A stretch of 64,000 bases of DNA, taken from positions 83,749 through 147,748 of the forward strand of contig JAPOWW010000007.1 of assembly GCA_026707405.1 (NCBI GenBank). Direction: 5' to 3'. This stretch comes from Chloroflexota bacterium. GTDB taxonomy: Bacteria; Chloroflexota; UBA11872; VXNJ01. The notes beneath the pieces are model-generated. The model did no database searches. It was not told the DNA's origin and worked only from the letters and a program-made list of their open reading frames with translations. Each line of letters begins with the position of its first letter. Positions within the stretch are counted from its first letter, which is position 1. Positions 1,686 to 42,807 of the stretch are shown here, piece after piece. Both the position numbers and the translations under genes were made by a program.

Positions 1686-3323
1686 ATGGCCAAGCAGATT
1701 GTGATGGACGTGGAAGCCCGGAACCACTTGGTCGAGGGAATCGACATAGTGGCGAACTCGGTCCGTACCACTTTGGGGCCCAAGGGTCGAAACGTCGCTC
1801 TCGGCAAGAAGTACGGCGGGCCGACCGTCACCCACGACGGCGTAACGGTCGCCAAGGAAATCGAGCTTGAAGAGCCGTTCGCCAACATGGGCGCCCAGCT
1901 AATCAAGGAAGCCGCCAGCAAGACCAACGACATCGCCGGAGACGGCACCACCACCGCAACTGTCCTTGCTCAGACGATCCTGAAGGAAGGACTCAGAAAC
2001 GTCGCCGCGGGCGCCAATCCCATGATTATCAAGCGCGGGATCCAGAAAGGCGTCGGCGCGCTCGTCGAGAGCCTCAAGGACCAGGCGCTCCAGATCAAGG
2101 GCAAGCAGGAGATCGCCAACATCGCTGCCATCTCCGCCGCCGACCAGGAAATCGGCGACCTCATTGCCGACGTAATGGACAAGGTCGGCAAGGACGGCGC
2201 CATCACCGTCGAGGAGTCGAAGGGACTCGAGTTCGAGATCGAGTACGTCGAGGGGATGAAGTTCGACCGCGGCTACATCTCGCCCTACTTCGTGACCAAC
2301 CAGGAGCAGATGGAAGCCAACATCGAGGAGCCTTACATCCTCATTACCGACAAGAAGATCTCCGCGGTTTCCGATATCCTCCCGACCCTCGAAAAGGTCA
2401 CCCAGGCCGGCACCAAGGAGTTCATCGTCCTCGCCGAAGACATAGAGGGCGAAGCGCTCGCCACTCTGGTCGTCAACAAGCTTCGCGGCGTGTTGAACTG
2501 CCTGGCCCTCAAGGCCCCCGGCTACGGCGACCGGCGCAAGGAAATGCTCCAGGACATCGCCATCATCACCGGCGGCACGGTCGTCTCCGAGGACATGGGA
2601 CGTCGGCTCGACGGCGTGATTTTGGAGGACCTCGGGCGCGCCCGCCGCGTAATCTCCGACAAGGACAACACTACCGTTGTCGAAGGTCAGGGAACCGAGG
2701 CCGCCGTTCAGGGCCGCATCCAGCAGCTCAAGGCGCAGATGGAAGAAGCTTCTTCCGACTACGACCGCGAAAAGCTGCAAGAGCGTCTCGCCAAGCTCTC
2801 CGGCGGGGTAGCGGTCATGCGAGTAGGCGCTGCCACCGAGACCGAGCAGAAGGAAAAGCAGCACCGCGTTGAAGACGCTCTCTCCGCCACCCGCGCCGCC
2901 ATCGAAGAAGGCATCGTCGCCGGTGGCGGCGTCGCCCTCGTCAACGCCGTTCCGGCGCTCGACGGCGTGGAAGTCGAAAACGAGGACGAGGGAGCCGGTA
3001 TACGAGCCCTGCGCAAGGCGCTCGAGTCGCCGCTGCGCTACATCGCCGAGAACGCTGGCCACGACGGCTCCGTTGTCGTCGAGGAAGTCCGCCGCCGCCA
3101 CAACGGCGAGGCCAGCCAGTACATCGGCTTCGACGTAATCGCCGAGGACTACGGCGACATGGTCGAAAAGGGAATCATCGACCCGCTCAAGGTCACGCGC
3201 TCCGCCCTGGAGAACGCGGCCTCCATAGCTTCGATGATCCTCACCACCGAAGCCCTCATAGCCGACATTCCCGAGCCTCCCGCGCCCGCGCCTCCCGGCG
3301 GCATGGGAGGAATGGACTACTAG
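1686..3323 (+). CDS. groL: chaperonin GroEL (Cpn60)
   Basis: 545 aa with the canonical N-terminus [13 protein letters not shown] and an ATP-binding [11 protein letters not shown] motif. The C-terminus ends in the GGMGGMDY Gly-Met tail. Confidence 0.97.
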
Positions 3324-3343
3324 TCCAATTCCCCGCGACCCAA

Positions 3344-3378
3344 AGCGGCCCGGCGCAATCGCCGGGCCGCTTTCATTT
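3344..3378 (+). terminator. rho-independent terminator downstream of groEL
   Basis: A GC-rich inverted repeat AGCGGCCCGGCG-caat-CGCCGGGCCGCT is followed by TTCATTT, ~20 nt after the groEL stop. Confidence 0.55.
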
Positions 3379-3505
3379 ACGGGGTCGAGCCACCCCTAGA
3401 CCACTTCGCGATCACGCTTTATAGACAATCAGGCTGATCCCCTCCGAACTGGCGCTATCCTATGGCCGTCCTTTAGCGAATAATCGCAACGTCTAGGACT
3501 AAGAG

Positions 3506-4885
3506 ATGCGCGAACTAGTCTTGGCGGCCCTCACGGCCGGACTCCTCTCCTTAATGGCCGTCGCCATAGCCACCGCCCACGACGAAGACCACAGCGCCGG
3601 TCAATGGCCGACCACGTGCGTCGATCTCAACGACATCGTCGAGGAGCACCTGGGACGTTTGGGTAACGTCGGCATCTACCAGAGGACATTCGGTGATCAG
3701 GCCGAAGCTGCCTGCCGGAACGATCACCGCAACGACGTCATAGCCGTTTTTGGCTGGGCGATAGCGACCGACGCCGGTCAAGCGGAATCCGCCGACTTGG
3801 AGCTTGACTGGCCTACGTCCTGCGTCGAATTGAACGACATCGTCGAGGAATATCTAGGTCGCACAGGCAACGTCGGCATCTATCAAAACACGTTCGGCGA
3901 TCAGGCCGAGGCCGCCTGCCAAAACGACCACCGCAACGACGTGCGCTCCGTCTTCGGCTGGGCCATCGGAACTACCGGCGCAGCTCCGCCGCCAACACCC
4001 GCACCCGCCGCTCTGCCGGCGGGAACACCCGTGCCCGCCGGTTCGCCGGCGCGCTTCGCGTTCGGGTCGAATCGGGACGGGGATCACGAGATCTACGTCA
4101 TGAACGCCGACGGGACGGGCGTCGTGCAGTTGACCCACAATACCGCCCTGGACGCTGCCCCCGCCTGGTCGCCGGACGGGCGCCGCATAGCGTTCAGGTC
4201 GAATCGGGATGGAAATCCCGAAATCTACGTCATGAATGCCGACGGAACAGGTGTCGTGCAGTTGACTCACAATGCCGCCCTGGATGCTGCCCCCGCCTGG
4301 TCGCCGGACGGACGCCGCATAGCGTTCACGTCGGATCGGGACGGGGATTTCGAGATCTTCGTCATGAATGCCGACGGAACGGACGTCGTGCAGTTGACTC
4401 AGAATACCGCCCTGGATGCCGCCCCCGCCTGGTCGCCGGACGGGCGCCGCATAGCGTTCAGGTCGAATCGGGACGGGAATCCCGAAATCTACGTCATGAA
4501 CGCTAACGGGACGGGCGTGGCGCGCTTGACGAGCCATGGCGGTACGCACATATCCCGCCCCGCCTGGTCGCCGGACGGGCGCCGCATAGCGTTCGCGTCG
4601 AATCGGGACGGGGATCCTAATATCTTCGTCATGAATGCCAACGGAACGGGCTCGGCGCGCTTGACGAGTCATACCGCGGACGATTGGGTACCCGCCTGGT
4701 CACCGGACGGGCTCCGCGTCGCGTTCACATCGGATCGGGACGGGAATCCCGAGATCTACGTCGTGAACACCGACGGATCCGGCGTGGCGCGCTTGACGAG
4801 CCATGACGCTACGCACATATCCCGCCCCGCCTGGTCGCCCGGCGGCGCGAGCAATGACTCCGACGCGACCGTTGCAACCGACTAG
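3506..4885 (+). CDS. membrane-anchored/secreted protein with two N-terminal copies of an uncharacterised Cys-containing domain plus seven TolB-like (PD40) beta-propeller repeats
   Basis: An N-terminal hydrophobic anchor (LVLAALTAGLLSLMAVAIA) is followed by two ~60-aa copies of WPTxCV(D/E)LNDIVEE(H/Y)LGRxGNVGIYQxTFGDQAEAACxNDHRNDV. A Pro/Ala-rich linker leads into 7 repeats of the FxSNRDGxxEIYVMNADGTGxxxLTxxxAxDxxPAWSPDGRRIAF type, typical of the PD40/TolB propeller. Confidence 0.8.
   Translation: MRELVLAALTAGLLSLMAVAIATAHDEDHSAGQWPTTCVDLNDIVEEHLGRLGNVGIYQRTFGDQAEAACRNDHRNDVIAVFGWAIATDAGQAESADLELDWPTSCVELNDIVEEYLGRTGNVGIYQNTFGDQAEAACQNDHRNDVRSVFGWAIGTTGAAPPPTPAPAALPAGTPVPAGSPARFAFGSNRDGDHEIYVMNADGTGVVQLTHNTALDAAPAWSPDGRRIAFRSNRDGNPEIYVMNADGTGVVQLTHNAALDAAPAWSPDGRRIAFTSDRDGDFEIFVMNADGTDVVQLTQNTALDAAPAWSPDGRRIAFRSNRDGNPEIYVMNANGTGVARLTSHGGTHISRPAWSPDGRRIAFASNRDGDPNIFVMNANGTGSARLTSHTADDWVPAWSPDGLRVAFTSDRDGNPEIYVVNTDGSGVARLTSHDATHISRPAWSPGGASNDSDATVATD
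4060..4850 (+). repeat. tandem ~120-bp nucleotide repeats (x7) encoding the PD40 blades
   Basis: Near-identical ~120-nt units are visible directly at the DNA level (e.g. gtcgaatcgggacgg...gcctggtcgccggacgggcgccgcatagcgttc recurring). This also generates the long antisense ORF 3854..4672. Confidence 0.7.
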
Positions 4886-4957
4886 ACAGTGGCGTCTCCG
4901 ACATTGACCCGCTGCTTCATGAAGCGGCCTGGATAGCTCTGCGCATTCCGCCCTCGT

Positions 4958-4981
4958 AGGGGCGGTTCGCAAACCGCCCCT
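4958..4981. repeat. 24-nt perfect palindrome AGGGGCGGTTCGCAAACCGCCCCT (copy 1 of 2)
   Basis: Near-identical to 54723-54744 including the 5' flank tcgtagg. Lies in an intergenic region. Confidence 0.6.
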
Positions 4982-5126
4982 GCGTCCCCGGCCCAACCGT
5001 TACCCATGTGGCCCGGCCGTCAGAATCGGTTTTTGCCCCCTCATCCAACGCAAGCTCAAAGAGTTCGAAACAGCGGTATCCTAGAGCGGTTCAAGAGACC
5101 GTATATCGCAACGGGAGGAATGCGAA

Positions 5127-5726
5127 ATGCGTAAGCTCATATTGGCGGCGGTAGCCGCCGGGATTCTGTCCATTGTGGCCATCGCCATCGCCGCGGCCCA
5201 CGACGACCATAGCACCGGTGAATGGCCTACCTCGTGCGTCGATCTCAACGACATCGTCGAGGAGCATCTGGGCCGTTTAGGCAACGTCGGTATCTACCAG
5301 CGGACATTCGGCGATCAGGCAGAGGCCGCCTGCCAGAACGACCACCGCAACGACGTGCGCTCCGTCTTCGCGTGGGCGATCCACGCACCTAGCCCCGAGC
5401 CGGTAGTGGTATCAGGGCAAGGCAACGCTGTTTCCGACCAATTCACGCTGTCGAAAGCGCGATACGTGGTCACGGCCTCGTGGTCCAACAACTCTCACGA
5501 CTCTGGCATCGGCGACAACTTCATATCGAAGCTGATTGCGGTCAACGGAGAGATTCAGGAGAGCTTCTTTTGCTCCGACAAAGCAACTCTCACGAACGTG
5601 ATTCAGGGTGAAGGTTCGGTTCAAGTAACAATCGACGTTTGCACGGATGTAGCCACTCTCTACACTCAGGTAGAAAACGCTCGTCCGAACGTCCAGTGGA
5701 CGTTCACGATCACCCGGGTTGGCTAG
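5127..5726 (+). CDS. membrane-anchored/secreted protein carrying one copy of the same uncharacterised WPTxC...NDHRNDV domain
   Basis: An N-terminal anchor (KLILAAVAAGILSIVAIAIAAA) is followed by HDDHSTGEWPTSCVDLNDIVEEHLGRLGNVGIYQRTFGDQAEAACQNDHRNDVRSVFAWAI. The domain is ~88% nt identical to 3595-3760. A distinct C-terminal region has no recognisable family. Confidence 0.72.
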   Translation: MRKLILAAVAAGILSIVAIAIAAAHDDHSTGEWPTSCVDLNDIVEEHLGRLGNVGIYQRTFGDQAEAACQNDHRNDVRSVFAWAIHAPSPEPVVVSGQGNAVSDQFTLSKARYVVTASWSNNSHDSGIGDNFISKLIAVNGEIQESFFCSDKATLTNVIQGEGSVQVTIDVCTDVATLYTQVENARPNVQWTFTITRVG

Positions 5727-5853
5727 CCCAAGACACCCCCGGGCATTCAAGCGGGGAGAGGGGCCATCCCCCCTCCCCGCTCGCTTTATCGCGCGGTCAC
5801 ACCCCGCCAGTTGCGGGTCTAGACAGGCGCCTCCATCTGACGGGCGCGCCAAC

Positions 5854-7668
5854 CTAACCCATCACCCCAAATACCAGCACCAGCATCCCGAACAGCGCCG
5901 CCAGGATTAACACCGCCACCGCCGATCCCGCCTTCACGTAATCGCCAAAGCGGTAGTTCCCCGGCCCCATCACCAAAATATTCCCCGGATGCGAATACGG
6001 CGACACGAACCCCGTGGCCGCCGCCAGCGCGATTGAGAGCGCGAACATCCGCGGATCGGCATCCATCCGGATCGCCGCGTCGATGGCGATGGGAGTCATC
6101 AGGACCGCCGTCACGTGGTTGCCCAGGACGTGCGTGAACACGAACGTAAGCAGCATCACCCCGGCCACTACCAGCCACGGGCCGAAAACGTCCAGGTTCG
6201 ACGCCAGACCGGAAGCCGCCAGGCTCGCCGCGCCCGTCTCGCGCATAGCCTCCGCCAGCGCCAGCATCGCGCCGATCAGCACAACCGCCCGCCATTCCAC
6301 GCTCGACCGCGCTTCCGTGATGTTCACGCAGCCCGTCGCCACCATCGCGATCGCCGCCGTCACCGCGACGATAGGCACCGAAGCCCATCCCGCCACCAGC
6401 GCCACCACGAACCCCAGCAATATCGCCACCGCCACCGGCGCCCGCTCCCGGCGGAACGGCCGGCCGCTCTGCTCCGTCAGGACGACGAAATCCGGTGATT
6501 CCCGCAACCCCTCGATGCGGGCGTGCGGTCCGTGCACGAGCAGCGCGTCGCCCTGCTCCAGTGGGATATTTTGCAGGTGCGTCCTGCGCGGCACGCCGTC
6601 GCGCCAGATTCCAAGCACGTTCAGACCGTAGCGGTCGCGGAAGCCCGTCTCGTTCAGCGTCCGTCCATTCAGACCGCTTCGCGGCGTCAGCGCCGCCTCG
6701 ACGATCTCGACTGACTCCGTCTGAAGAGCGCTCGTCCCGTTCTCCATCTCGCTGCGAACGACCAGCGAATGCGCCGCCGCGGCGGCGTCCAGGTCTTCGG
6801 GTCTCGCGCTGACGATCAGAACGTCGCCTGCGATCACCGCCGTCGACGGCATCAGCGAGACTATTGTCTTCCCTCGCCTGCTGATCGCCACCACCCACAC
6901 CCCGAACGACTCGCCCATTGCGGTGTCGCTGAGCGTCCTTCCCGTCAGATCGCTCGCGGGCGGCACGTAAAGCTCGAACAGTCGGTCTTCGAGTTTGTAT
7001 TGGGGATGCTCCCGCCTCCCCGCCGGCAGCATCGCCGCGATCCCGGCTCCAGTCGCCCTAACCGGAAGCAACCGACTCCCGCCCAGCGTCATCACCGCCA
7101 TACCCGCCGCCAGCGCCACGAGCCCGAACGGCGTAAACTCGAACAGGCTGAACCCCGTGTACCCCTCGTCGATCAGCATGCTGTGAACAAGCAGGTTCGC
7201 GGGGGTCCCGACGAGCGTTAGCAGGCTCCCCATCAGCGTCGCGTACGACAGCGGGATCAGTACCCTTGAGATCGGAGTGTTCATCTCCCGCGCGGCCGCC
7301 ACGACCGCCGGTAGCAAAACAGCCGCCGCGGCAATCGCGTTCATGAACCCCGAAAGACCCGCCGCGACCAGCATCGTTATAGCCAGCAGCCGGCGTTCGC
7401 TTCCCCCGGACACACGCCGGATTAGCCGCCCGATCTCGTATGCCACGCCCGTCCGCGCCAGGCCACTGCTCATCACGTACACCGCGCCGATAGTCACCAC
7501 CGCCGGATTCGCAAATCCGCCGATGGCTTGGCCGGCGTCCAGCACCCCCGCCAGCGCGACGACAACCAGAACACCAAGAGCTATGAGATCGGGCGGAAAT
7601 CGCCCCGTCGCGAAAAGCGCCATCGCCACGGCAAGCACCGCCAGCACCAACGCGGTCTCGAAAGTCAC
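5854..7668 (-). CDS. SLC13/DASS-family anion permease with two central TrkA-C (RCK_C) domains
   Basis: 604 aa with polytopic hydrophobic N- and C-halves, a soluble TrkA-C-like insert (aa ~230-400), and a typical CitT/SLC13 permease architecture. Confidence 0.75.
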   Translation of the reverse strand: MTFETALVLAVLAVAMALFATGRFPPDLIALGVLVVVALAGVLDAGQAIGGFANPAVVTIGAVYVMSSGLARTGVAYEIGRLIRRVSGGSERRLLAITMLVAAGLSGFMNAIAAAAVLLPAVVAAAREMNTPISRVLIPLSYATLMGSLLTLVGTPANLLVHSMLIDEGYTGFSLFEFTPFGLVALAAGMAVMTLGGSRLLPVRATGAGIAAMLPAGRREHPQYKLEDRLFELYVPPASDLTGRTLSDTAMGESFGVWVVAISRRGKTIVSLMPSTAVIAGDVLIVSARPEDLDAAAAAHSLVVRSEMENGTSALQTESVEIVEAALTPRSGLNGRTLNETGFRDRYGLNVLGIWRDGVPRRTHLQNIPLEQGDALLVHGPHARIEGLRESPDFVVLTEQSGRPFRRERAPVAVAILLGFVVALVAGWASVPIVAVTAAIAMVATGCVNITEARSSVEWRAVVLIGAMLALAEAMRETGAASLAASGLASNLDVFGPWLVVAGVMLLTFVFTHVLGNHVTAVLMTPIAIDAAIRMDADPRMFALSIALAAATGFVSPYSHPGNILVMGPGNYRFGDYVKAGSAVAVLILAALFGMLVLVFGVMG

Positions 7669-35065: not shown

Positions 35066-36517
35066 CTAGCTCGCGCCGTTGCCCGGCGTGCCCATGTAGG
35101 ACGATCCGGCCACCGACTCGGGGTATCCCCACATGCCGTGCTCGGAGATGTCGAGTCCGTCGACTTCGTGCATCCGGTCCACCCTCAAGCCAATCGTGTA
35201 CTTGATTCCGTAGAACACGATCAGGCAGGTTGCTCCGACCCAAGCCACCGTGCTGAGCGATCCGAGCGCCTGTACGCCCAGTTGGTTCAGCCCGCCGCCG
35301 TAGAAGAGGCCCGCGCTGCCTAGACCCTCGGTCAGCTCGGCCGTGCCGAAAAGACCGATCGCAAGCGTGCCCCAGATGCCGCAGACCGCGTGCACCGACA
35401 CCGCTCCCACGGGGTCGTCGACTCTCAGCCGGTCGATTCCGACTACCGACAGAACCACGATCATCCCCGCGATGAAGCCGATGACCGCCGCCGCCCACGA
35501 GTCCACGAAAGCGCAGCCGGCCGTGATCGCCACCAGTCCCGCCAGTCCACCGTTGCCCAGCATTCCGACGTCGGGCTTTCGATAGACGATCCGCGAGATC
35601 ACCAGCGCGCCTACCACGCCCGCCGCCGCCGCCAGGTTGGTCGTAAGCACGATCGAGGCGAAGTCCACGCCCGCGGCCTTCAGCGTGCTCCCGGCGTTGA
35701 ATCCCAGCCATCCGAACCACAGCACCAAGACCCCGGCGATAGCCAGCGGCATGCTGTGCCCGGGAATGACTCTGATCCTGCCGTTCGTGTACTTGCCCAC
35801 TCTGGGACCCACGACTATCGCGCCCACCAGCGCGGCCACCCCGCCTACCGTGTGGACAACGGTCGATCCCGCAAAGTCAAGGAATCCGAGGTCCGCCAGC
35901 CAGCCGCCGCCCCACACCCAGTGGCCGACCACCGGATAAATAAAGGCGGTCAGCACGACCACGTACACGAGATACCCTGTGAATCTGGTCCTCTCCGCCA
36001 CCGCGCCCGAGACTATCGTCGCCGCCGTCGCGGCGAAAACGACCTGGAAGAACCACTTTGTCGATATGCTCACCCCGGCCCAGTCGAGCGACGAAAACGA
36101 GCTCGCCGCATCCGCGTCGGTCACCGACAGGAACCATCCGCTGTGGCCCAAAAACGGGTTACCGTCCCCGAACATGAACGGAAACCCGACCGCCCAGTAG
36201 GCGATCATGCCTACGGCGATGTTCATCATGTTCTTGGCGCAGATGTTCGCCGCGTTCTTCATCCGCGTAAACCCGGCCTCCAGCATCGTGAAGCCCAGGT
36301 GCATCAGGAACACGAGCGCCCCCGCGACCACTACCCACAGGGTGTCCACGGCCTGCTCTATGTCGGTCAGCGTCAACTCGCTCGCGCCCGCCGCCGCCGG
36401 CACCAGCAGCCCCGCGATCACCGCGCCCGCCAGCGCGGCCAGCCACCGTTTCGGCGCGATCCGCGGCACGGCCGATAGTCTCATTAGCGGACTCAGGTTG
36501 AATCCGGTCGTTTTCAA
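35066..36517 (-). CDS. amt: ammonium transporter (Amt/MEP family)
   Basis: A signal peptide and 11 TM helices with the Amt signature region (FLMHLGFTMLEAGFTRMKNAANI). Translationally coupled to glnK upstream (4-nt overlap). Confidence 0.9.
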   Translation of the reverse strand: MKTTGFNLSPLMRLSAVPRIAPKRWLAALAGAVIAGLLVPAAAGASELTLTDIEQAVDTLWVVVAGALVFLMHLGFTMLEAGFTRMKNAANICAKNMMNIAVGMIAYWAVGFPFMFGDGNPFLGHSGWFLSVTDADAASSFSSLDWAGVSISTKWFFQVVFAATAATIVSGAVAERTRFTGYLVYVVVLTAFIYPVVGHWVWGGGWLADLGFLDFAGSTVVHTVGGVAALVGAIVVGPRVGKYTNGRIRVIPGHSMPLAIAGVLVLWFGWLGFNAGSTLKAAGVDFASIVLTTNLAAAAGVVGALVISRIVYRKPDVGMLGNGGLAGLVAITAGCAFVDSWAAAVIGFIAGMIVVLSVVGIDRLRVDDPVGAVSVHAVCGIWGTLAIGLFGTAELTEGLGSAGLFYGGGLNQLGVQALGSLSTVAWVGATCLIVFYGIKYTIGLRVDRMHEVDGLDISEHGMWGYPESVAGSSYMGTPGNGAS

Positions 36518-36852
36518 AGTGCGTCCTGTCCTTTTTGCTGAGTTCGAATTCGTACTGCGTCTTCGACGGGGATGACGAATATCTTTCCGTCGCCCACCTC
36601 GCCAGTTACGGCGTTTTCACAGATCACGGAGATGACTTTCTCCACGCTCGCGTCATCTACCACGAGCTCCATCTTGACCTTCGGCCGAAACATGATCGCC
36701 GCTCTCACGCCCCGGTAGCTCTCGGTGTAGCCCCGTTGCGTGCCCGCGCCTCTCACTTCGCTGATCGTCAGTCCGTGGAACCCCGCCTTGTCCAGCGCGT
36801 CCCGAACTCGCTCCAGCATCTCGCGCCTGATAATGGCCTCCACTTTTTTCAT
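36514..36852 (-). CDS. glnK: PII nitrogen regulatory protein
   Basis: 112-aa PII fold (MKKVEAIIRREMLERVRDAL...GDGKIFV). Conserved glnK-amt gene order. Confidence 0.9.
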   Translation of the reverse strand: MKKVEAIIRREMLERVRDALDKAGFHGLTISEVRGAGTQRGYTESYRGVRAAIMFRPKVKMELVVDDASVEKVISVICENAVTGEVGDGKIFVIPVEDAVRIRTQQKGQDAL

Positions 36853-37672
36853 CTACCCGGCAAAATCCTTTCTCCATTTGGCGCGCCGATACACGTCCCG
36901 AAATAGCTGAGTGCGCACCAACATTGAGGGTCTGCTCCGCTGCGGTTGGCTTTGTCGGGCCTGCGAGGCCCGTGTTTCCCCTTCCCGGGGTCTGGGAGGG
37001 CCGGCGTTGGCCCATGTGAATGCGTCAAAGACGCGTGTGGCGCTGGATATTGCGCGCGGCCCGAAGGCCTCCCGGCGGTTTGGAAACTACGCAGTTCCAG
37101 TGCCGGCCGCGCTCACAACGAGGCGTCATAGCTTTCCAGCGACGGCGAAGTCTAGTTCACCCCAAGCCCAACGTCAAAAAGCTTGGCAATCGTTTACCTG
37201 ACACACCAAGGGGTGATTGAAAACGGTGGGACGGGTCGGAGAGGTGGGAAGATTAGATTAGGTCAGGCAGGTTAGAAACGGTGAGACAGCAGGAAAAACG
37301 ATCCTTGCTGAGCGGTTGCAGGCCGATGGGCCGAGTTTAGCTTGGTCAATTTGGTTTTTAGACTAGCTCCGGAAGTCGTCCCCAATCCAATTTCACGGTA
37401 GCAACTCTAAACTCAAAAAATCCAACCAACTCGGTGAAAAGGTCAACCCCCTCAGGCTTAGCGAACTCATGGTGAAGCCGTTGTCATCACCGCGCTGAAT
37501 TGTACTTTCGAGAGCCGCGGCCATAGCTTCAATTGAGATCTGTCGTGGTGCTGCAAGCTTATTTTCGATTCCATTTGTTGCCGTGATTGCAGCAAGAGCC
37601 TCTTCAGCAGGTTCTATGGTGATAGGCTCCGGTGATTGTGGGCGATGGCGTAGAGTGTGAGACAATGCGTGT

Positions 37673-37903
37673 ATGGGAAACGAGTTGCTTGTTATCTCAA
37701 TCCTTGGGCCAATAGCTATCCTCTTTGGCACTCTCTACACATTGCTCCGTAAAGACATCGGCAAGATTGGTGAGAGGGTTGGCGAGGTAGAGAAGGATAT
37801 CGCGCGAGTGCAGGGTGCTAAAGATCAGGAAAAATTGCAGATTGACCGAGAAACCCGAGACGCCCTTAGGGAATCGCGTGGGATATTCAGGCGGCCAGCT
37901 TAG
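37673..37903 (+). CDS. hypothetical small protein with an N-terminal TM helix and a charged coiled-coil tail (low-GC island)
   Basis: 76-aa ORF in an AT-richer tract. It has a hydrophobic N-terminus, LLVISILGPIAILFGTLYTLL. Confidence 0.3.
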   Translation: MGNELLVISILGPIAILFGTLYTLLRKDIGKIGERVGEVEKDIARVQGAKDQEKLQIDRETRDALRESRGIFRRPA

Positions 37904-37906
37904 GTT

Positions 37907-38203
37907 ATGTTAGACAAAGAGCTAATACAAGACCAAGAATTGCGCGAGCGGATTACGAAGTATTTTAATGAAGCAGAGCCGCGAGCGTTTTTCCTCGGCT
38001 TTATCCTCGCGAGGCTTGTAGACAGCACTCATATAGAAGCTCTCAAGAGTGACTTGAGAACGCTTGAGAGGCTGAGTCACAACTGGGCCGAAGGGGGGGA
38101 AGCTGTACACGCTATTCATACTCTCGGAACGATACTTCACTTACGCTTGCCATCAGAAAATTCTGACCAAACCCCACCACCAAAGCCTGTGAAACAAGGG
38201 TAG
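37907..38203 (+). CDS. hypothetical protein (low-GC island)
   Basis: 98-aa ORF starting 4 nt after the previous stop. Its codon usage is distinct from the flanking high-GC genes. Confidence 0.3.
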   Translation: MLDKELIQDQELRERITKYFNEAEPRAFFLGFILARLVDSTHIEALKSDLRTLERLSHNWAEGGEAVHAIHTLGTILHLRLPSENSDQTPPPKPVKQG

Positions 38204-38638
38204 TTCGCGTAGTAGGTGCGGATGACACTGCGTGTCGCGGTGACTTATTACGTGCGTCACCCATCGCGACGCGGTGTATATCTGAAGCATGAATGAGACG
38301 AGTACTGCCCCAAGAGTCGCAAGACTAGAGGGCGTGATGCAAGTGCTTCTCGACAATCACTTGCCACACATTACCCGCGACATCACATAGATTAAGTACA
38401 CCGTCATATCTACCCTGCCTTGCTTGCCGTTATCGGTGGTCTGGCAACGATTGTCTATCACTTGAGTTAATCAAAGGCAATTAGCGTATTAGGTGCCGGA
38501 TTGTCGCCTTTTTCATTTTTCGTAACCATCAATAGGGTCTTACGGTTATAGCTTCGCCGCGCAAAAAACCCGATCTACCGCACCGATCAATGCGACTCAA
38601 TTACGGCGTATCAGTTTGAGGGACGATCTGACCGCTGG

Positions 38639-39133
38639 TTAGTGGCGATCCGCTGTTGCCGCCGTATTTTCCACCACTAGTGCATTGACGTGGCGGCCGT
38701 CCAGCAAATACACGTCAGCCAGCAGCCGCCCGAAGCTATCCCGCCCATTTGCCTTGTCGGTGATCTCTAACCGGACCGTCTGTCCTTCCACCAGGGAGGC
38801 GTTGTAGGCCGTGGCTTCCACCCCGCCTTCTTCGTCCCGCTCTGGCGCCCACACGTCCAGATAGCGGACCTTCTCACGATGCCCGCGATAGGTGACCTCG
38901 ACGGTATCTCCGTCTATGACGCGTGTGACCGGCACGACGTTGCGCTCGTCTTGGACCGCCTGTAGCTCCGACTCGATTGCGTCCAAGCGGGCATGGAATC
39001 GAGCTTCTGAGTTTCGGAGTTCCTGCTCAAGTTCGGCAGCGGTGCAGGCGGTCGCGACAATAAGCAGGATCGCGACTGCCAGAACTGGTAGCCTGATCGG
39101 TTTCCCAAGCGCGTTCAAACAGTGACGCCGCAC
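38639..39133 (-). CDS. secreted thermonuclease (staphylococcal-nuclease/SNase-like)
   Basis: A signal peptide/anchor (LPVLAVAILLIVATA) and a coiled-coil segment are followed by the SNase core (VIDGDTVEVTYRGHREKVRYLDVWAPE...GRLLADVY). Confidence 0.72.
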   Translation of the reverse strand: MRRHCLNALGKPIRLPVLAVAILLIVATACTAAELEQELRNSEARFHARLDAIESELQAVQDERNVVPVTRVIDGDTVEVTYRGHREKVRYLDVWAPERDEEGGVEATAYNASLVEGQTVRLEITDKANGRDSFGRLLADVYLLDGRHVNALVVENTAATADRH

Positions 39134-39894
39134 ATCCGCGCAGCCCTTCTTACTGGATGCTCGCTATCCACGTACGGCGCAAGATGGAAGTCGGCAGACA
39201 GGCCGTGCTCCGGCAAGTTTACGGTCAGTCCCGAAGCGAGCATGAAGGTCTGCGCGTACAGCGTAGCCTTGTGGGTGTCGAGAGGATTGATTATCACGGC
39301 TACGACAGTCTCGCCACGGAATGGTGTCTCACCGCCGAACCACGAGTCGGTGACCAGATCGGCGTGACCGTGGTAACGGAAACGGACCTCCGTAGCTCTG
39401 AATTCGCCCAAAGAGAGTTGAGGCACGTCTGCGCCAGTCCACAACACACCGATAAGGAGCTCACCGTCTGAGCAGAGAACTGCTAAGAATGCTGATCCAT
39501 CTGGTCTGCTTGACTCAACGATAGTGCCGGTATCGTCCTCAATCCACGACTTCGCGTTCGCAGGCTGAACCGGCGTCGAACTGGTCGTATCGAGCGCCCA
39601 CGCGAAAGCGCCGCGCACGTCGTTGCGGTGGTCGTTGCGACAGGCTTCTTCTGCTTCCGGCCCATATCCGAACACCCGCTGGTAAATGCCGACATTGTGG
39701 TCGTTACCGAGCCAGCTTTCGAACGCGTCGTTCGCCCCGACGCACGTAGTAGGCCACTGTGCCTGTACTACTGTGACAGTAGCTGCGGTGACTAATCCAA
39801 CGACTAGCCCAGCTAAAGCAAGACGCTTGATCTGTGACAACAAGGCGACCCTCCCAACGGCGAGGAAATCTCGTTGCCACACAAGACCATGCAA
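39115..39894 (-). CDS. membrane-anchored protein carrying a fourth copy of the uncharacterised WPTxC...NDHRNDV domain
   Basis: An N-terminal anchor (LVVGLVTAATVTVV) is followed by QWPTTCVGANDAFESWLGNDHNVGIYQRVFGYGPEAEEACRNDHRNDVRGAFAWAL. The C-terminal 150 aa have no recognisable family. Confidence 0.6.
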   Translation of the reverse strand: MHGLVWQRDFLAVGRVALLSQIKRLALAGLVVGLVTAATVTVVQAQWPTTCVGANDAFESWLGNDHNVGIYQRVFGYGPEAEEACRNDHRNDVRGAFAWALDTTSSTPVQPANAKSWIEDDTGTIVESSRPDGSAFLAVLCSDGELLIGVLWTGADVPQLSLGEFRATEVRFRYHGHADLVTDSWFGGETPFRGETVVAVIINPLDTHKATLYAQTFMLASGLTVNLPEHGLSADFHLAPYVDSEHPVRRAARMCGVTV

Positions 39895-40107
39895 GCCACG
39901 GGAGGGTCATATAGCCCCGCCAGATGGCTTGCACACCTTGAATTGATGGCGGTCTTGTGTGGCGAACCCAGTCTATCACCGGTTGGGAGCGCCTCCGGTT
40001 GCCAAGCATCAAATTCAGTTCGGTTGACGTTCGGTAATATAATGACCACGGTACCCAAATCGTGTTTTAATTATGTTAATTGGCCTTAAGGCGGAGGGGA
40101 TAAGGTC

Positions 40108-40656
40108 GTGGCGAATGCTAATGATGTTGCGGCGTACATAGTCGAGAATTGCAAATATGACTTAACCGGAGTGAAGCTCCAGAAACTCGTGTACTACAGC
40201 TACGCATGGCATCTTGTTTGGGATGAAGAACGCCTGTTCATGGAGCCGATTGAAGCATGGGCTTTAGGCCCTGTTGTACGTGCGGTTTATCGGAATCACC
40301 GCCAAGAGTCTGACGAAATAGAGGGTTGGCCGCACGGCGATTCCATGAGGTTGACGGAGAACGAACGGGACAGCATTGACGAAGTGCTCGAAGAATACAG
40401 TGAACTAGGGCCTTTCGAGTTAAGCGACATATCTCACGAAGAACCACCTTGGATAAACGCCAGAGGCAATACGCCTGCAGGTAGACCCTCCAACGCGCGA
40501 ATCGCCGACAGAGAGATACAGGATTACTACAGCGGTGTCTATGACGTAGAGGCCCATGACGCCGCTCTAGCACGAGCAAATGAGGAGAGTCTGAAGACAG
40601 GACTGGTCGGTAGGCAGGCAGTAGTGGATACTCTCAATTGCTTGGATGGAAGTTAA
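40108..40656 (+). CDS. Panacea-domain (DUF4065, SocA/GepA-like) putative antitoxin
   Basis: The N-terminal region KLQKLVYYSYAWHLVWDEERLFMEPIEAWALGPVV matches the DUF4065 core. It overlaps the downstream RelE-like ORF by 11 nt. Confidence 0.6.
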   Translation: MANANDVAAYIVENCKYDLTGVKLQKLVYYSYAWHLVWDEERLFMEPIEAWALGPVVRAVYRNHRQESDEIEGWPHGDSMRLTENERDSIDEVLEEYSELGPFELSDISHEEPPWINARGNTPAGRPSNARIADREIQDYYSGVYDVEAHDAALARANEESLKTGLVGRQAVVDTLNCLDGS

Positions 40657-40903
40657 GTTCACGAGCGGCTTTCAAAGTGATCTCAAGAAGCTCCGTGAAC
40701 CAGACATCGCCAATAGCGTGCATGGCGTTATTCAGAGAATTGAATCAGCGCCAACGAGGCGAGAAATGCCTCGCTTCAAAAAGCTAAAGGGCACAGACAA
40801 TGCCTATCGAATTAGAGTGAGTGGGTTTCGGCTGGTTTTTGATCTGACGGATGAAGTAGTCACGTTAACGGCGTTTCGTCCGCGCGACCATGTGTATAGC
40901 TGA
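40646..40903 (+). CDS. RelE/ParE-superfamily toxin-like protein
   Basis: 85 aa with the pattern ...LKKL...KKLKGTDNAYRIRVSGFRLVFDLTDEVVTLTAFRPRDHVY, resembling RelE (R/Y-rich C-terminal catalytic region). Confidence 0.55.
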   Translation: MEVKFTSGFQSDLKKLREPDIANSVHGVIQRIESAPTRREMPRFKKLKGTDNAYRIRVSGFRLVFDLTDEVVTLTAFRPRDHVYS

Positions 40904-40915
40904 ACATTTCTAGGG

Positions 40916-41098
40916 ATGGAAACAGTGAAAAAGTTTGCATATCGTGTCGAAGGTGCATCGGGCTGGTTTCATGTCACTGCGGATAGAGTGGAAAACTACT
41001 CAGCCAACGTCAACACTATTGCCCTGCGGTTCTATCGTGACGATAGAGTAGTTGAAGAAGCTGTGGGCGTAATAGTATGGCGCGAGGTGGACAACTAA
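40916..41098 (+). CDS. hypothetical small protein
   Basis: 60-aa ORF in the island with no recognisable motifs. Confidence 0.2.
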   Translation: METVKKFAYRVEGASGWFHVTADRVENYSANVNTIALRFYRDDRVVEEAVGVIVWREVDN

Positions 41099-41340
41099 CC
41101 TTCTCCCCTATCTGACTCTACTTTTCAACCTCACCTACCTAAAACCGCCCCCTTTCATCCCTTCTTCTCTAACCTCTAGGGTCTGCTAAGAGCATTATTG
41201 CCAAAACGTCGATTCCCCCACCCCATCAAACACCCCAGTCCAACTCCCGCTATCCTTGACCGGCTCCCGAATTCCTACGCTTCGTGACATCCGGATCCGC
41301 CGGATTGACCGGAGCGGCCAGACAACGGACATCGCCGCTA

Positions 41341-42807
41341 ATGCCCGACCCACGCCCCAACATCATCCTCATAATCACCGACCAGCAGCGCTACGACACC
41401 ATAGGCGCGCTCGGCTTCCCCCACGTCGACACGCCCAACCTCGACCGGCTCGTTCGGGAAGGCGTCAGCTTCAGCCATTGCTTCATTAACGCCCCCTCGT
41501 GCGGACCGGCCCGCGCCAGTCTCTTCACCGGGTATTCGCCCCACAACCACGGAGCCCAGCGCAACAACGATCCCTGGCCCCGCACCTGGGTAGAGTCCTT
41601 GCGCGATTCCGGCTATCACTGCGTCAACATCGGCAAGATGCACGCCGACCCCTACGGCGGCAGGCACGGATTCCACGAGCGCCAAGTCGTCGAGAACAAG
41701 CAGCGCCGCGCCGCCGAGGTCCAGTGGGCCGGCAACCGCCACGTATTCAACGACGAGCTCGACAAGGCCCTCTGGGCGAGAGGGCACACCCGCCTCGAAA
41801 AAGACTATTTCCGCACCCTGCCCGAGTTCGAGACCAGTCTCGGCGCCTACGACTGGCACCTCGAAGACGATCTGCATCCCGATTTCTTCGTCGGCGATCT
41901 CGCGCTGCGCTGGCTCGCCCAGGCCCCGCCGATGGACGACGAGCCGCTATTCCTCCAGATCGGATTCCCCGGCCCGCACCCTCCTTACGATCCCATCAGG
42001 CGGTACGTCGAGCCGTATATGGACCGCGATCTGCCGGTACTGCCGGTCACTCAGGAGGAGATGGACGCCCAGCCCGAGGCCGTCAAGGCACTCCGCGACA
42101 CGCACGTGCGGCGCGACGCCGACTCCGTCGCCTTCCGTCCGGACGCCCCCATGAGCCGCCGCCATCGCCAGCGCGCCTACTACCTCGCCAACATGACGAT
42201 GATCGACGAAAAGGTCGGCCAGATTCTCGACGCGCTCGAAGACCGGGGACAGTTGCATAACTCAGTCGTGATCTTCACTTCCGACCACGGCGACTGCCTC
42301 GGCGACCACGGCCTCAGCCAGAAATGGAACATGTACGACGCCTCGGTCCGCGTGCCGCTCATCTTCTGGTCGCCGGGCCGGTTCGAGGGCGGACGCACCA
42401 TCGACAGCCTGCAGCAGCTATTCGACGCCGGCCCCACCATTCTCGAGCTGGCCGGCATCGAGCCCCCCGAGGGCTTCGAAGCCGTGTCGCTGCTCCCCGA
42501 TTTGGAAGGCCGCGAAAACCCGTCCCCACGGGAGTACGTCTACTCCGAGCACGCCCGCGACACCGTCAACGAAGGCGTCGAGTTCGAGATGATGATTCGT
42601 AGTAAGGAATGGAAGCTCGTCGAGTTCTTCGACCCCTCGGGCGGTCAGCTCTTCGATCTCGTCAACGACCCCGACGAGCTGAACGACCTCTGGAACGACC
42701 CCGCGCACGACGCAATCAGGCAGCAGCTTCGCGAAATCATGCATACCTGGTTCGTGACCAGCGCCACCAGGGCCGCCGGCTGGCGCAACGAACCCCGCTA
42801 CGGCTGA
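41341..42807 (+). CDS. sulfatase (formylglycine-dependent arylsulfatase family)
   Basis: Metal-ligand start IILIITDQQRYD and the C-x-P-x-R FGly motif (PSCGPARAS). The C-terminal sulfatase domain is conserved (SDHGD). Confidence 0.85.
   Translation: MPDPRPNIILIITDQQRYDTIGALGFPHVDTPNLDRLVREGVSFSHCFINAPSCGPARASLFTGYSPHNHGAQRNNDPWPRTWVESLRDSGYHCVNIGKMHADPYGGRHGFHERQVVENKQRRAAEVQWAGNRHVFNDELDKALWARGHTRLEKDYFRTLPEFETSLGAYDWHLEDDLHPDFFVGDLALRWLAQAPPMDDEPLFLQIGFPGPHPPYDPIRRYVEPYMDRDLPVLPVTQEEMDAQPEAVKALRDTHVRRDADSVAFRPDAPMSRRHRQRAYYLANMTMIDEKVGQILDALEDRGQLHNSVVIFTSDHGDCLGDHGLSQKWNMYDASVRVPLIFWSPGRFEGGRTIDSLQQLFDAGPTILELAGIEPPEGFEAVSLLPDLEGRENPSPREYVYSEHARDTVNEGVEFEMMIRSKEWKLVEFFDPSGGQLFDLVNDPDELNDLWNDPAHDAIRQQLREIMHTWFVTSATRAAGWRNEPRYG

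What the first reader, a model, noticed from the sequence alone, without database searches (positions are those of the whole stretch)
3506..5726. Unrecognised ~60-aa disulfide-type domain (WPTxCVxLNDIVEE.LGR.GNVGIYQ.TFGDQAEAAC.NDHRNDV) present four times in three anchored proteins
Two tandem copies open the TolB-propeller protein (3506-4885), one copy opens the adjacent 199-aa protein (5127-5726), and a diverged copy opens the island protein at 39115-39894. All follow an N-terminal membrane anchor or signal sequence and keep two invariant Cys. The HxxNDV and EAxC motifs are strictly conserved, suggesting a metal- or ligand-binding extracytoplasmic module. The nucleotide-level identity between 3595-3760, 3805-3970 and 5215-5385 (~85-90%) indicates recent duplication or gene conversion. 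I do not recognise this domain from any described family.
Basis: seen in the sequence. Interest (0 to 1): 0.6.

Follow-up and report, generated by a model that had tools for sequence, protein, structure and literature searches.

The report
New secreted-protein handle in sponge symbionts
A roughly 55-residue, two-cysteine helical module of no described family sits just after the export signal on dozens of unrelated exported proteins of one sponge-restricted bacterial lineage, probably as a shared docking or retention handle.

Summary
Four copies of a ~55-aa domain (WPTxCV.LNDIVE.HLG..NVGIYQ..FG..AE.AC..DHR.DV..F.WA) lie in three exported proteins at 3506-4885, 5127-5726 and 39115-39840(-). No Pfam, NCBIfam, PDB, fold-library or literature match exists, and a weak resemblance to P22 Arc proved to be chance.

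The domain is not a genome-local repeat. An exhaustive profile search found 285 cluster representatives. A scan of species genomes found 221 stretches; the 79 loci returned are all from Chloroflexota MAGs. The five I could trace are sponge-derived order UBA11872.

The copies are old and constrained, not recently converted. Nucleotide identity is 76-82%, dS is 0.7-2.1 and dN/dS is 0.05-0.13.

The domain almost always follows a signal peptide (AxA|QWPTTC), in one or two copies. It is fused to unrelated passengers: PD40, RCC1, LRR and ankyrin repeats, trypsin-like and metallo-peptidases, SNase nuclease and a c-type cytochrome. AlphaFold models each copy as a short helix, a loop and a 30-residue helix, and models the tandem pair as one compact unit.

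Best reading (about 0.4): a disulfide-stapled, self-pairing hairpin that docks or retains exported proteins at the symbiont envelope. Metal binding is neither supported nor excluded.

The parts
3506..4885 (+). winA, 459 aa: signal peptide, His-rich spacer, D, D, Pro/Ala linker, PD40 beta-propeller
   Evidence: ORF. PD40 PF07676 E 1.3e-74. TolB TIGR02800 scores 288 bits, below the 343 cut-off.
3506..3577 (+). Predicted Sec signal peptide or leader of winA (aa 1-24, ...AVAIATA|H)
   Evidence: Read from the sequence. The same leader type occurs in 28 of 139 family leaders. Cleavage is inferred.
3578..3604 (+). Acidic, His-rich spacer HDEDHSAGQ, between the leader and the first D copy
   Evidence: Conserved A-H-[DE]-[DE]-H motif in a subfamily. 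pLDDT is below 50 in the model.
3605..3775 (+). D copy 1 of winA (aa 34-90)
   Evidence: tblastn and HMM. AlphaFold helix-loop-helix with block pLDDT 91-98.
3809..3979 (+). D copy 2 of winA (aa 102-158)
4073..4855 (+). PD40 (WD40-like) propeller repeats of winA
   Evidence: Pfam PF07676, five stretches, and TolB-like NCBIfam hits over aa 192-448.
5127..5726 (+). winB, 199 aa: signal peptide, HDDH spacer, D, ~107-aa C-terminal domain of unknown family
   Evidence: ORF. An identical protein is called on public contigs. No Pfam or NCBIfam hit.
5223..5393 (+). D copy of winB (aa 33-89)
5403..5723 (+). C-terminal domain of winB
   Evidence: It recurs at the C-terminus of other D proteins and of a D-D-trypsin protease (P0118, P0151, P0158, P0026), BLASTP E 2e-8 to 3e-5. 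No PDB relative.
39115..39840 (-). winC, 241 aa (the ORF extends to 39894): signal peptide (VQA|QWPTTC), D, ~154-aa domain
   Evidence: ORF. The public gene call is 241 aa, equal to P0144. The C-terminal domain aligns with the beta-rich insert of bracket-type D proteins at 29% overall identity; that insert was modelled in P0039, not in winC.
39580..39756 (-). D copy of winC (diverged, ~60% identity, 2-residue insertion)
38639..39133 (-). SNase-like nuclease gene overlapping the winC stop by 19 nt; it has its own hydrophobic leader (possible lipobox ...VATAC)
   Evidence: PF00565 E 2.2e-6. It is 49% identical over the nuclease core to SP-D-SNase-Excalibur fusions in other genomes.

Best explanation
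The domain (D) is a lineage-specific extracytoplasmic 'handle'.

Shown:
- D lies directly behind a signal peptide, or more rarely elsewhere in an exported region, on proteins whose remaining domains are unrelated to one another.
- D is far more conserved than those passenger domains.

Inferred mechanism:
- After Sec export and signal-peptidase cleavage (AxA|Q), D folds into a two-helix hairpin stapled by a C5-C37 disulfide.
- The long second helix ends in a hydrophobic stretch (V45, F49, W51, A52, F/I53) that has no partner within one copy. Two D copies therefore pack into a four-helix unit. The two copies can be tandem, can bracket an insert, or can come from two chains.
- The invariant polar and acidic surface of that unit (N9, D10, E13, N21, Y25, Q26, E34, D40, H41, D44) binds one common envelope-associated partner, either a receptor protein or a wall polymer.
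- This keeps proteases, nucleases, a cytochrome c and eukaryote-like repeat proteins on or near the symbiont surface.

Functionally this resembles a dockerin or an SLH-type anchor, without homology to either.
For: - No known family matches any of 121 members.
- The family has 285 cluster representatives, 265 of them at E<=1e-10, which is a tight family with no remote tail.
- Of 162 proteins examined, 91 carry two copies, 69 one and 2 three. In 139 the first copy starts 16-69 residues from the N-terminus, and 115 of those have Q at -1, typically after an AxA-type motif (ALAQ, VFAQ, VSAQ...).
- Passengers are heterogeneous and of extracytoplasmic type:
  - Trypsin_2, RCC1, LRR, PD40, Ank, fn3, DUF2927;
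  - M1-like peptidase, GHL15;
  - SNase plus Excalibur;
  - cytochrome c with a C-terminal D-D, conserved in 9 loci within a housekeeping neighbourhood;
  - an FtsK-like ATPase, then a TM helix, then D-D, which places D outside the membrane.
- About 30 of 55 positions are at least 95% identical across paralogues. Median dN/dS is 0.13 with pS 0.61 over 173 unique copies.
- In the AlphaFold tandem model each D is a helix (11 aa), a loop and a helix (30 aa). Mean pLDDT is 85 and pTM 0.75, too high for two independently placed 57-aa domains.
- A bracket protein (D, beta-rich insert, D) models at pTM 0.66.
- Where the SNase lacks D (in the window), it carries its own leader with a possible lipobox. 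This is a non-homologous alternative anchor for the same enzyme.
- There are many paralogues per genome: at least 10 loci each in OZ253578.1 and OZ244593.1.
Against: - No receptor or ligand was identified. Neighbourhoods of D genes are heterogeneous and show no conserved partner gene.
- Pairing rests on a monomer AlphaFold model. I could not inspect its coordinates or PAE, and AlphaFold tends to pack helices together.
- Some D proteins already have a TM segment, so retention alone would be redundant for them. P0078 certainly does, and the cytochrome c possibly does.
- The envelope type of UBA11872 is unknown. If the lineage is diderm, D proteins could simply be periplasmic.
- Signal-peptide cleavage and the disulfide are inferred, not shown.
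- Conserved acidic and His residues fit a metal site equally well.
Confidence: 0.4

Rival explanations
1. Host-directed targeting or adhesion module. D binds a sponge matrix component or cell-surface receptor. It thereby delivers or concentrates ankyrin, LRR and RCC1 'eukaryote-like' proteins and hydrolases at the host interface.
For: - In the 79 loci returned, the family occurs only in Chloroflexota MAGs. The five traced are UBA11872, a lineage detected only in corals and sponges.
- Passengers include the ankyrin and LRR classes enriched in sponge symbionts.
- Robbins et al. (PMC8163846) note that classical secretion systems are mostly missing in these MAGs.
- D-ANK-D proteins are conserved in about 10 species.
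Against: D is also fused to a c-type cytochrome in a housekeeping neighbourhood and to the extracellular tail of a membrane ATPase. That makes little sense for a host-binding tag. No similarity to known adhesin folds was found.
Confidence: 0.2
2. Pure oligomerisation module. D only dimerises its passenger domains and neither anchors nor docks them to anything else.
For: - The tandem pair is predicted to be compact.
- One- and two-copy architectures and bracket architectures exist.
- The end of helix 2 is hydrophobic.
Against: Tandem copies would satisfy each other within one chain and so would not oligomerise the passenger. The near-invariance of exposed polar residues across paralogues suggests a shared external partner.
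Confidence: 0.13
3. Export, sorting or folding tag. D is recognised by a dedicated machinery (secretion across an outer layer, processing, quality control), or acts as an intramolecular chaperone and is later removed.
For: D sits at the very N-terminus of the mature protein in most members, with a conserved Q-W-P start. The tag is highly uniform across many cargo types.
Against: D also occurs internally and at C-termini. No conserved machinery gene lies next to D genes. No cleavage motif follows D.
Confidence: 0.13
4. Metal-binding, redox or sensing domain. The Cys pair together with D40, H41 and D44, or the acidic cluster, coordinates Zn, Cu or Ca as the domain's main function.
For: C5, C37, E34, D40 and H41 are 98-100% conserved, and H15 is 85-93% conserved. 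A subfamily that includes winA and winB adds an H-[DE]-[DE]-H spacer that would leave X-X-His at the mature N-terminus.
Against: No match to any metal-binding family or fold. Extracytoplasmic Cys pairs are usually disulfides. A metal function does not explain why unrelated enzymes and repeat proteins would all need the domain.
Confidence: 0.12
5. Recently expanded repeat, or gene-conversion tract, without selection.
For: Adjacent paralogues winA and winB share both leader and domain.
Against: Synonymous sites are near saturation and dN/dS is 0.05-0.13. The family spans 285 clusters and many species.
Confidence: 0.01

Closest known systems
Type I dockerin (PF00404) of cellulosomes
   Same: It is a small (~60-70 aa) helical extracellular module with an internal duplication. 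It is appended to many unrelated enzymes of one organism and is unusually uniform among paralogues, because all copies bind the same receptor. This is the closest functional analogy.
   Different: There is no sequence or HMM match. D has no DxNxDG-type calcium loops. D is mostly N-terminal and disulfide-containing. No cohesin-like partner was found.
SLH domain (PF00395) and other Gram-positive surface anchors (CWB2, LysM, GW)
   Same: The repeat is ~55 aa and helix-loop-helix, placed after the signal peptide on diverse surface proteins. Copies assemble into a bundle. According to the published Sap structure (my own knowledge), three SLH copies form a pseudo-trimer, and single-copy proteins oligomerise to complete it.
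   Different: No HMM match. D has one or two copies rather than three, no TRAE motif and two invariant Cys. The ligand is unknown.
P22 Arc repressor / ribbon-helix-helix fold
   Same: Thirty-one colinear residues resemble Arc (WP..L..V..G..N..IYQRV), with matching helix-turn-helix positions. hhalign against Arc alone gives Prob 85%.
   Different: The match disappears against an Arc/Mnt family profile (Prob 1.1%, and 0.2% without P22 Arc). D has no N-terminal beta-ribbon and is extracytoplasmic. Fold search does not retrieve RHH proteins. I treat this as a chance resemblance.
   Same: The C-terminal PD40 beta-propeller.
   Different: The score is below the equivalog cut-off (288 against 343). 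The TolB N-terminal alpha/beta domain is replaced by D-D.

Membership tests
Any Pfam-A / NCBIfam family (for the D domain) | HMM match at or near the curated threshold | tested here: not met
   There is no hit covering D in winA, winB or winC at E<=1. No family is shared by the 121 members scanned.
SLH domain (PF00395) | PF00395 HMM match; three tandem ~55-aa motifs with a conserved TRAE-type motif | tested here: not met
   No Pfam hit. Copy number is 1-2. No TRAE motif appears in the consensus.
SLH domain (PF00395) | Binding of pyruvylated secondary cell-wall polymer | not testable with these tools
   This needs biochemistry.
Dockerin (PF00404) | PF00404 match and duplicated EF-hand-like Ca2+ loops | tested here: not met
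   No Pfam hit. The loop sequence LGNxxNVG is not a DxNxDGxxxxxD loop.
Dockerin (PF00404) | Cognate cohesin-bearing scaffold in the same genome | tested here: inconclusive
   Only +/-6-10 kb around D genes could be inspected. No recurrent partner was seen there.
Ribbon-helix-helix (Arc/MetJ) | Family-level sequence or profile similarity | tested here: not met
   PDB profile search gives only P22 Arc, at E 0.3-0.6. hhalign against an 8-sequence Arc/Mnt profile gives Prob 1.1%.
Ribbon-helix-helix (Arc/MetJ) | N-terminal beta-strand forming the DNA-reading ribbon; cytoplasmic location | tested here: not met
   D starts at W1 right after the signal cleavage site. The model has no strand.
TolB (TIGR02800) for winA | Equivalog score of at least 343 bits, with the N-terminal TolB domain | tested here: not met
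   The score is 288 bits, and matches cover only the propeller, aa 192-448.
Disulfide-stabilised extracytoplasmic domain (generic) | Two invariant Cys close in space; exported location | tested here: inconclusive
   Both Cys are 100% conserved, and leaders are present. C5 at the start of helix 1 and C37 in helix 2 are compatible with an antiparallel hairpin.

The most novel reading that the evidence does not exclude
D is the address tag of a previously unrecognised surface-display or docking system specific to sponge-symbiotic Chloroflexota (UBA11872). One receptor or scaffold would collect all D-tagged cargo into an envelope-bound assembly at the host interface. That cargo includes ankyrin, LRR and RCC1 'eukaryote-like' proteins, proteases, nucleases and a cytochrome. 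This would explain how symbionts lacking classical secretion systems present such proteins to the host.
Probability: 0.15. Interest if true: 0.8.

Novelty: new variant of a known kind. Interest (0 to 1): 0.6.

Why it matters
Sponge symbionts carry many eukaryote-like repeat proteins that are thought to manage the host. Robbins et al. (PMC8163846) point out that most of these genomes lack the secretion systems that would deliver them.

A single, very conserved tag turns that question into experiments. It marks ankyrin, LRR, RCC1 and PD40 proteins together with secreted hydrolases and a cytochrome in one sponge-restricted lineage. In practice:
- The tag defines the exported proteome of UBA11872 by sequence alone.
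- It gives an epitope or bait for localisation and pull-downs.
- It provides a compact, well-predicted domain for structure determination.

It is also a clean candidate for a new Pfam family: at least 285 clusters and no homologues.

Tried and rejected
- **RHH/Arc homology.** Suggested by PDB profile hits and by hhalign Prob 85% against Arc alone. I built an Arc/Mnt alignment from phage records. The signal collapsed to Prob 1.1%, and to 0.2% without P22 Arc. Rejected as chance.
- **Phage or viral origin.** No D copy in IMG/VR or INPHARED. A weak phrog_19208 hit (E 1e-4 for winA, 0.03 for winB, none for winC) was not pursued further.
- **Conserved partner gene.** Six-frame ORF clustering of 80 loci was noisy because of high GC and gave no recurrent neighbour. 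Called-gene neighbourhoods are heterogeneous.
- **The search for homologous proteins.** It returned only short fragments. The exhaustive profile search was the informative one.
- **Positional subtypes.** First and second tandem copies differ only weakly (Q38 against R38; G23 100% against 70%).
- **Recent gene conversion.** Rejected by dN/dS.
- **Literature.** No paper contains the motif strings.
Full report
**1. The observation**

The three ORFs exist as described:
- winA, 3506-4885(+), 459 aa.
- winB, 5127-5726(+), 199 aa.
- winC, 39115-39894(-). Public gene calls start winC at 39840, giving 241 aa.

tblastn of each putative domain against the whole window recovers exactly four copies, at 3605-3775, 3809-3979, 5223-5393 and 39580-39756(-). 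Their E-values run from 1e-19 to 1e-44, and the next best match is at E 0.09. Each first copy follows a hydrophobic leader. Two Cys are invariant.

The three similar copies are 76-82% identical, and most differences are synonymous.

**2. Not a known family**

- Pfam-A, NCBIfam and PHROGs give no credible hit to the domain in the window proteins.
- When 121 family members were scanned individually against Pfam, no family was shared by them. Only their differing C-terminal domains were recognised.
- A profile search of all PDB sequences returned only variants of P22 Arc, at E 0.3-0.6.
- The motif strings occur in no paper of the library.

**3. A real, sizeable, lineage-restricted family**

An exhaustive HMMER search of 1.84 billion cluster representatives found 285 proteins at E<=1e-3, 265 at E<=1e-10 and 150 at E<=1e-30. 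The family is therefore compact, with essentially no remote tail.

A scan of one genome per GTDB species found 221 encoding stretches. The 79 loci returned all come from MAGs labelled Chloroflexota or Chloroflexi, and at least 10 loci each come from two complete chromosomes.

Five of these MAGs (COS2_bin_4, RHO1_bin_32, RHO2_bin_72, RHO3_bin_23, SB0662_bin_61) are classified c__UBA2235; o__UBA11872; f__UBA11872. They derive from the sponges Coscinoderma, Rhopaloeides and Ircinia (Robbins et al. 2021, PMC8163846, supplement). An independent survey of more than 5000 Chloroflexota genomes detected UBA11872 only in 'corals and sponges' (PMC10608941).

The window itself is scaffold_142 of a metagenome assembly labelled ROBB21-1 (SAMN13943208). 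No copy exists in IMG/VR or in GenBank phages.

**4. Selection**

Over 173 unique domain copies from 80 loci, median pN is 0.14, pS 0.61, dS about 1.1 and dN/dS 0.13. For the window copies dS is 0.68-2.1 and dN/dS 0.05-0.10. About 30 of 55 positions are at least 95% identical across paralogues whose other domains are unrelated. These are old copies under strong constraint, not a recent conversion tract.

**5. Anatomy and architectures**

Of 162 proteins examined, 91 have two copies, 69 have one and 2 have three. In 139 of them the first copy begins 16-69 residues from the N-terminus. In 115 of those the residue before W1 is Q, typically in an AxA|Q context (ALAQ, VFAQ, VSAQ...). That is a signal-peptidase I site which would leave Q-W-P-T-T-C as the mature N-terminus.

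Three layouts recur:
- SP-D-D-X.
- SP-D-X.
- 'Bracket' SP-D-insert-D, with the second copy at the extreme C-terminus.

The passenger X includes:
- trypsin-like peptidase (11 of 121), RCC1 (9), LRR (4), PD40 (3), ankyrin (3), fn3 and DUF2927;
- M1-like and other HExxH peptidases, and GHL15;
- SNase plus Excalibur, a 263-264-aa orthologue group found in 12 loci.

D-ANK-D proteins are conserved in about 10 species.

Two architectures are especially informative:
- A c-type cytochrome (PF13442) carries D-D at its C-terminus. It is conserved in 9 loci and lies among housekeeping genes (MurD-like ligase, SmpB, NUDIX, PfkB).
- An FtsK/SpoIIIE-like ATPase is followed by a TM helix, a Pro/Thr linker and a C-terminal D-D.

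Both place D outside the membrane, in a cell-associated rather than a host-directed context.

**6. Structure prediction**

The tandem region of winA (aa 25-170, 54-sequence alignment) models with mean pLDDT 85 and pTM 0.75. Each D is an 11-residue helix (C5-H15), an 8-residue loop with a 3-10 turn, and a 30-residue helix (I24-A52). The linkers have low confidence.

A pTM of 0.75 is not attainable if two 57-residue units were placed independently, so the model packs the two copies into one unit. This is an inference, because I had no coordinates or PAE.

C5 at the start of helix 1 and C37 about 13 residues into helix 2 are positioned compatibly with a hairpin-stapling disulfide. This too is inferred. 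The distal half of helix 2 is hydrophobic (V45, V48, F49, W51, A52, F/I53) and has no partner within one hairpin, which argues for obligatory pairing.

A bracket protein (P0039, whose insert aligns with the C-terminal domain of winC) models at pLDDT 83 and pTM 0.66. Both D copies adopt the same hairpin, and the insert is beta-rich.

**7. The Arc lead**

D positions 1-31 align colinearly with Arc residues 14-44 at 42% identity, and hhalign against Arc alone gave Prob 85%. Because Arc was the best of 177,635 sequences, that P-value is not significant after correction.

I then built an Arc/Mnt alignment from eight phage sequences. Against this family profile the probability fell to 1.1%, and to 0.2% once P22 Arc was left out. 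The resemblance therefore rests on residues peculiar to P22 Arc. I reject homology.

**8. Context in the window**

- winA and winB are adjacent, downstream of groEL (1686-3323) and upstream of a CitMHS/TrkA_C transporter. In the closest complete genome (OZ242360.1, winB 99% identical) the same site holds four D genes in tandem.
- winC lies in a stretch of lower GC (55-57% against about 62%), next to SocA_Panacea and ParE-like genes.
- winC overlaps by 19 nt a nuclease gene of the SNase family. That nuclease is 49% identical over its core to the SP-D-SNase-Excalibur fusions of other genomes. It lacks D and has its own leader ending ...VATAC, a possible lipobox. The same enzyme thus appears either with D or with a different putative anchor.
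- Neighbourhoods of D genes elsewhere are heterogeneous and show no recurrent partner.

**9. Interpretation**

The pattern is one very uniform small module on many unrelated exported proteins, in one or two copies, predicted to self-pair. That is the pattern of surface-anchoring and docking modules (dockerin, SLH, CWB2), though without homology to any of them.

I therefore favour a disulfide-stapled, self-pairing hairpin whose conserved polar surface binds a common envelope-associated partner and so retains or organises the exported proteome (confidence about 0.4).

The rivals are:
- a host-binding tag (0.2);
- dimerisation only (0.13);
- an export or folding tag (0.13);
- a metal-binding domain (0.12);
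- a neutral repeat expansion (0.01, refuted).

The receptor, the disulfide, signal-peptide cleavage and pairing all remain to be shown.

**10. Verdict**

The 'recent duplication' claim is refuted. The metal-binding idea is untested.

This is a new, lineage-specific domain family with a plausible but unproven docking or retention role. It is of moderate to high interest because it ties the eukaryote-like proteins of a sponge-restricted symbiont lineage to a single tractable tag.

Noticed in passing
window 3569-3604 and 5190-5222; also 28 of 139 family leaders: In the winA/winB subfamily the leader ends AxA followed by (A/T/S)-A-H-[DE]-[DE]-H-S. Cleavage after AxA would leave X-X-His at the mature N-terminus, plus a second His three residues on. 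That is an ATCUN-like copper/nickel motif. Other members have D-(N/S/I)-H-D-Q-G. This is speculative, because the cleavage site is not established.
   Followed up: partly
window 38639-39133 (-): An SNase-family nuclease gene overlaps the stop of winC by 19 nt and has its own leader with a possible lipobox (...LLIVATAC). In 12 loci from other genomes the homologous nuclease (49% identity) is fused to D and to an Excalibur Ca-binding domain.
   Followed up: yes
window 36000-42000: This stretch has lower GC (55-57% against about 62%) and holds winC, the nuclease, a SocA_Panacea-family gene (40108-40656) and a ParE-like toxin gene (40646-40903). No tRNA gene lies anywhere in the window. It may be a variable island.
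   Followed up: partly
window 39841-39894 (-): The mechanical ORF of winC starts at a TTG 18 codons upstream of the start used in public gene calls. The shorter form begins MSQIKRLALAG..., which is a normal signal peptide.
   Followed up: yes
L001 (OZ242360.1) 2126-6500 compared with window 1686-5726: The closest complete genome has four D genes in tandem, including orthologues of winA and winB. In the window, groEL lies directly upstream of winA. The array size therefore varies between close relatives.
   Followed up: partly
P0078; L023 5317-6225: Two unusual carriers of D-D at the C-terminus were seen. One is an FtsK/SpoIIIE-like ATPase followed by a TM helix and four helical 'APTEFAAW' repeats. 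The other is a class-I c-type cytochrome joined to D-D by a long Pro/Thr linker, conserved in 9 species.
   Followed up: partly
window 5403-5723 (+): The C-terminal ~107-aa domain of winB (G.G..VSD.F.L....Y...A.WS.N...WT...R) recurs at the C-terminus of other D proteins and of a D-D-trypsin protease (P0026). It has no Pfam or PDB relative and looks like a second uncharacterised module.
   Followed up: partly
window 3506-4100 (winA N-terminal region): There is a weak hit to phrog_19208 (unknown function): E 1e-4 over aa 25-63 of winA and E 0.03 for winB. It is not seen for winC and not supported by phage tblastn or BFVD searches. It remains unexplained and is probably chance.
   Followed up: partly
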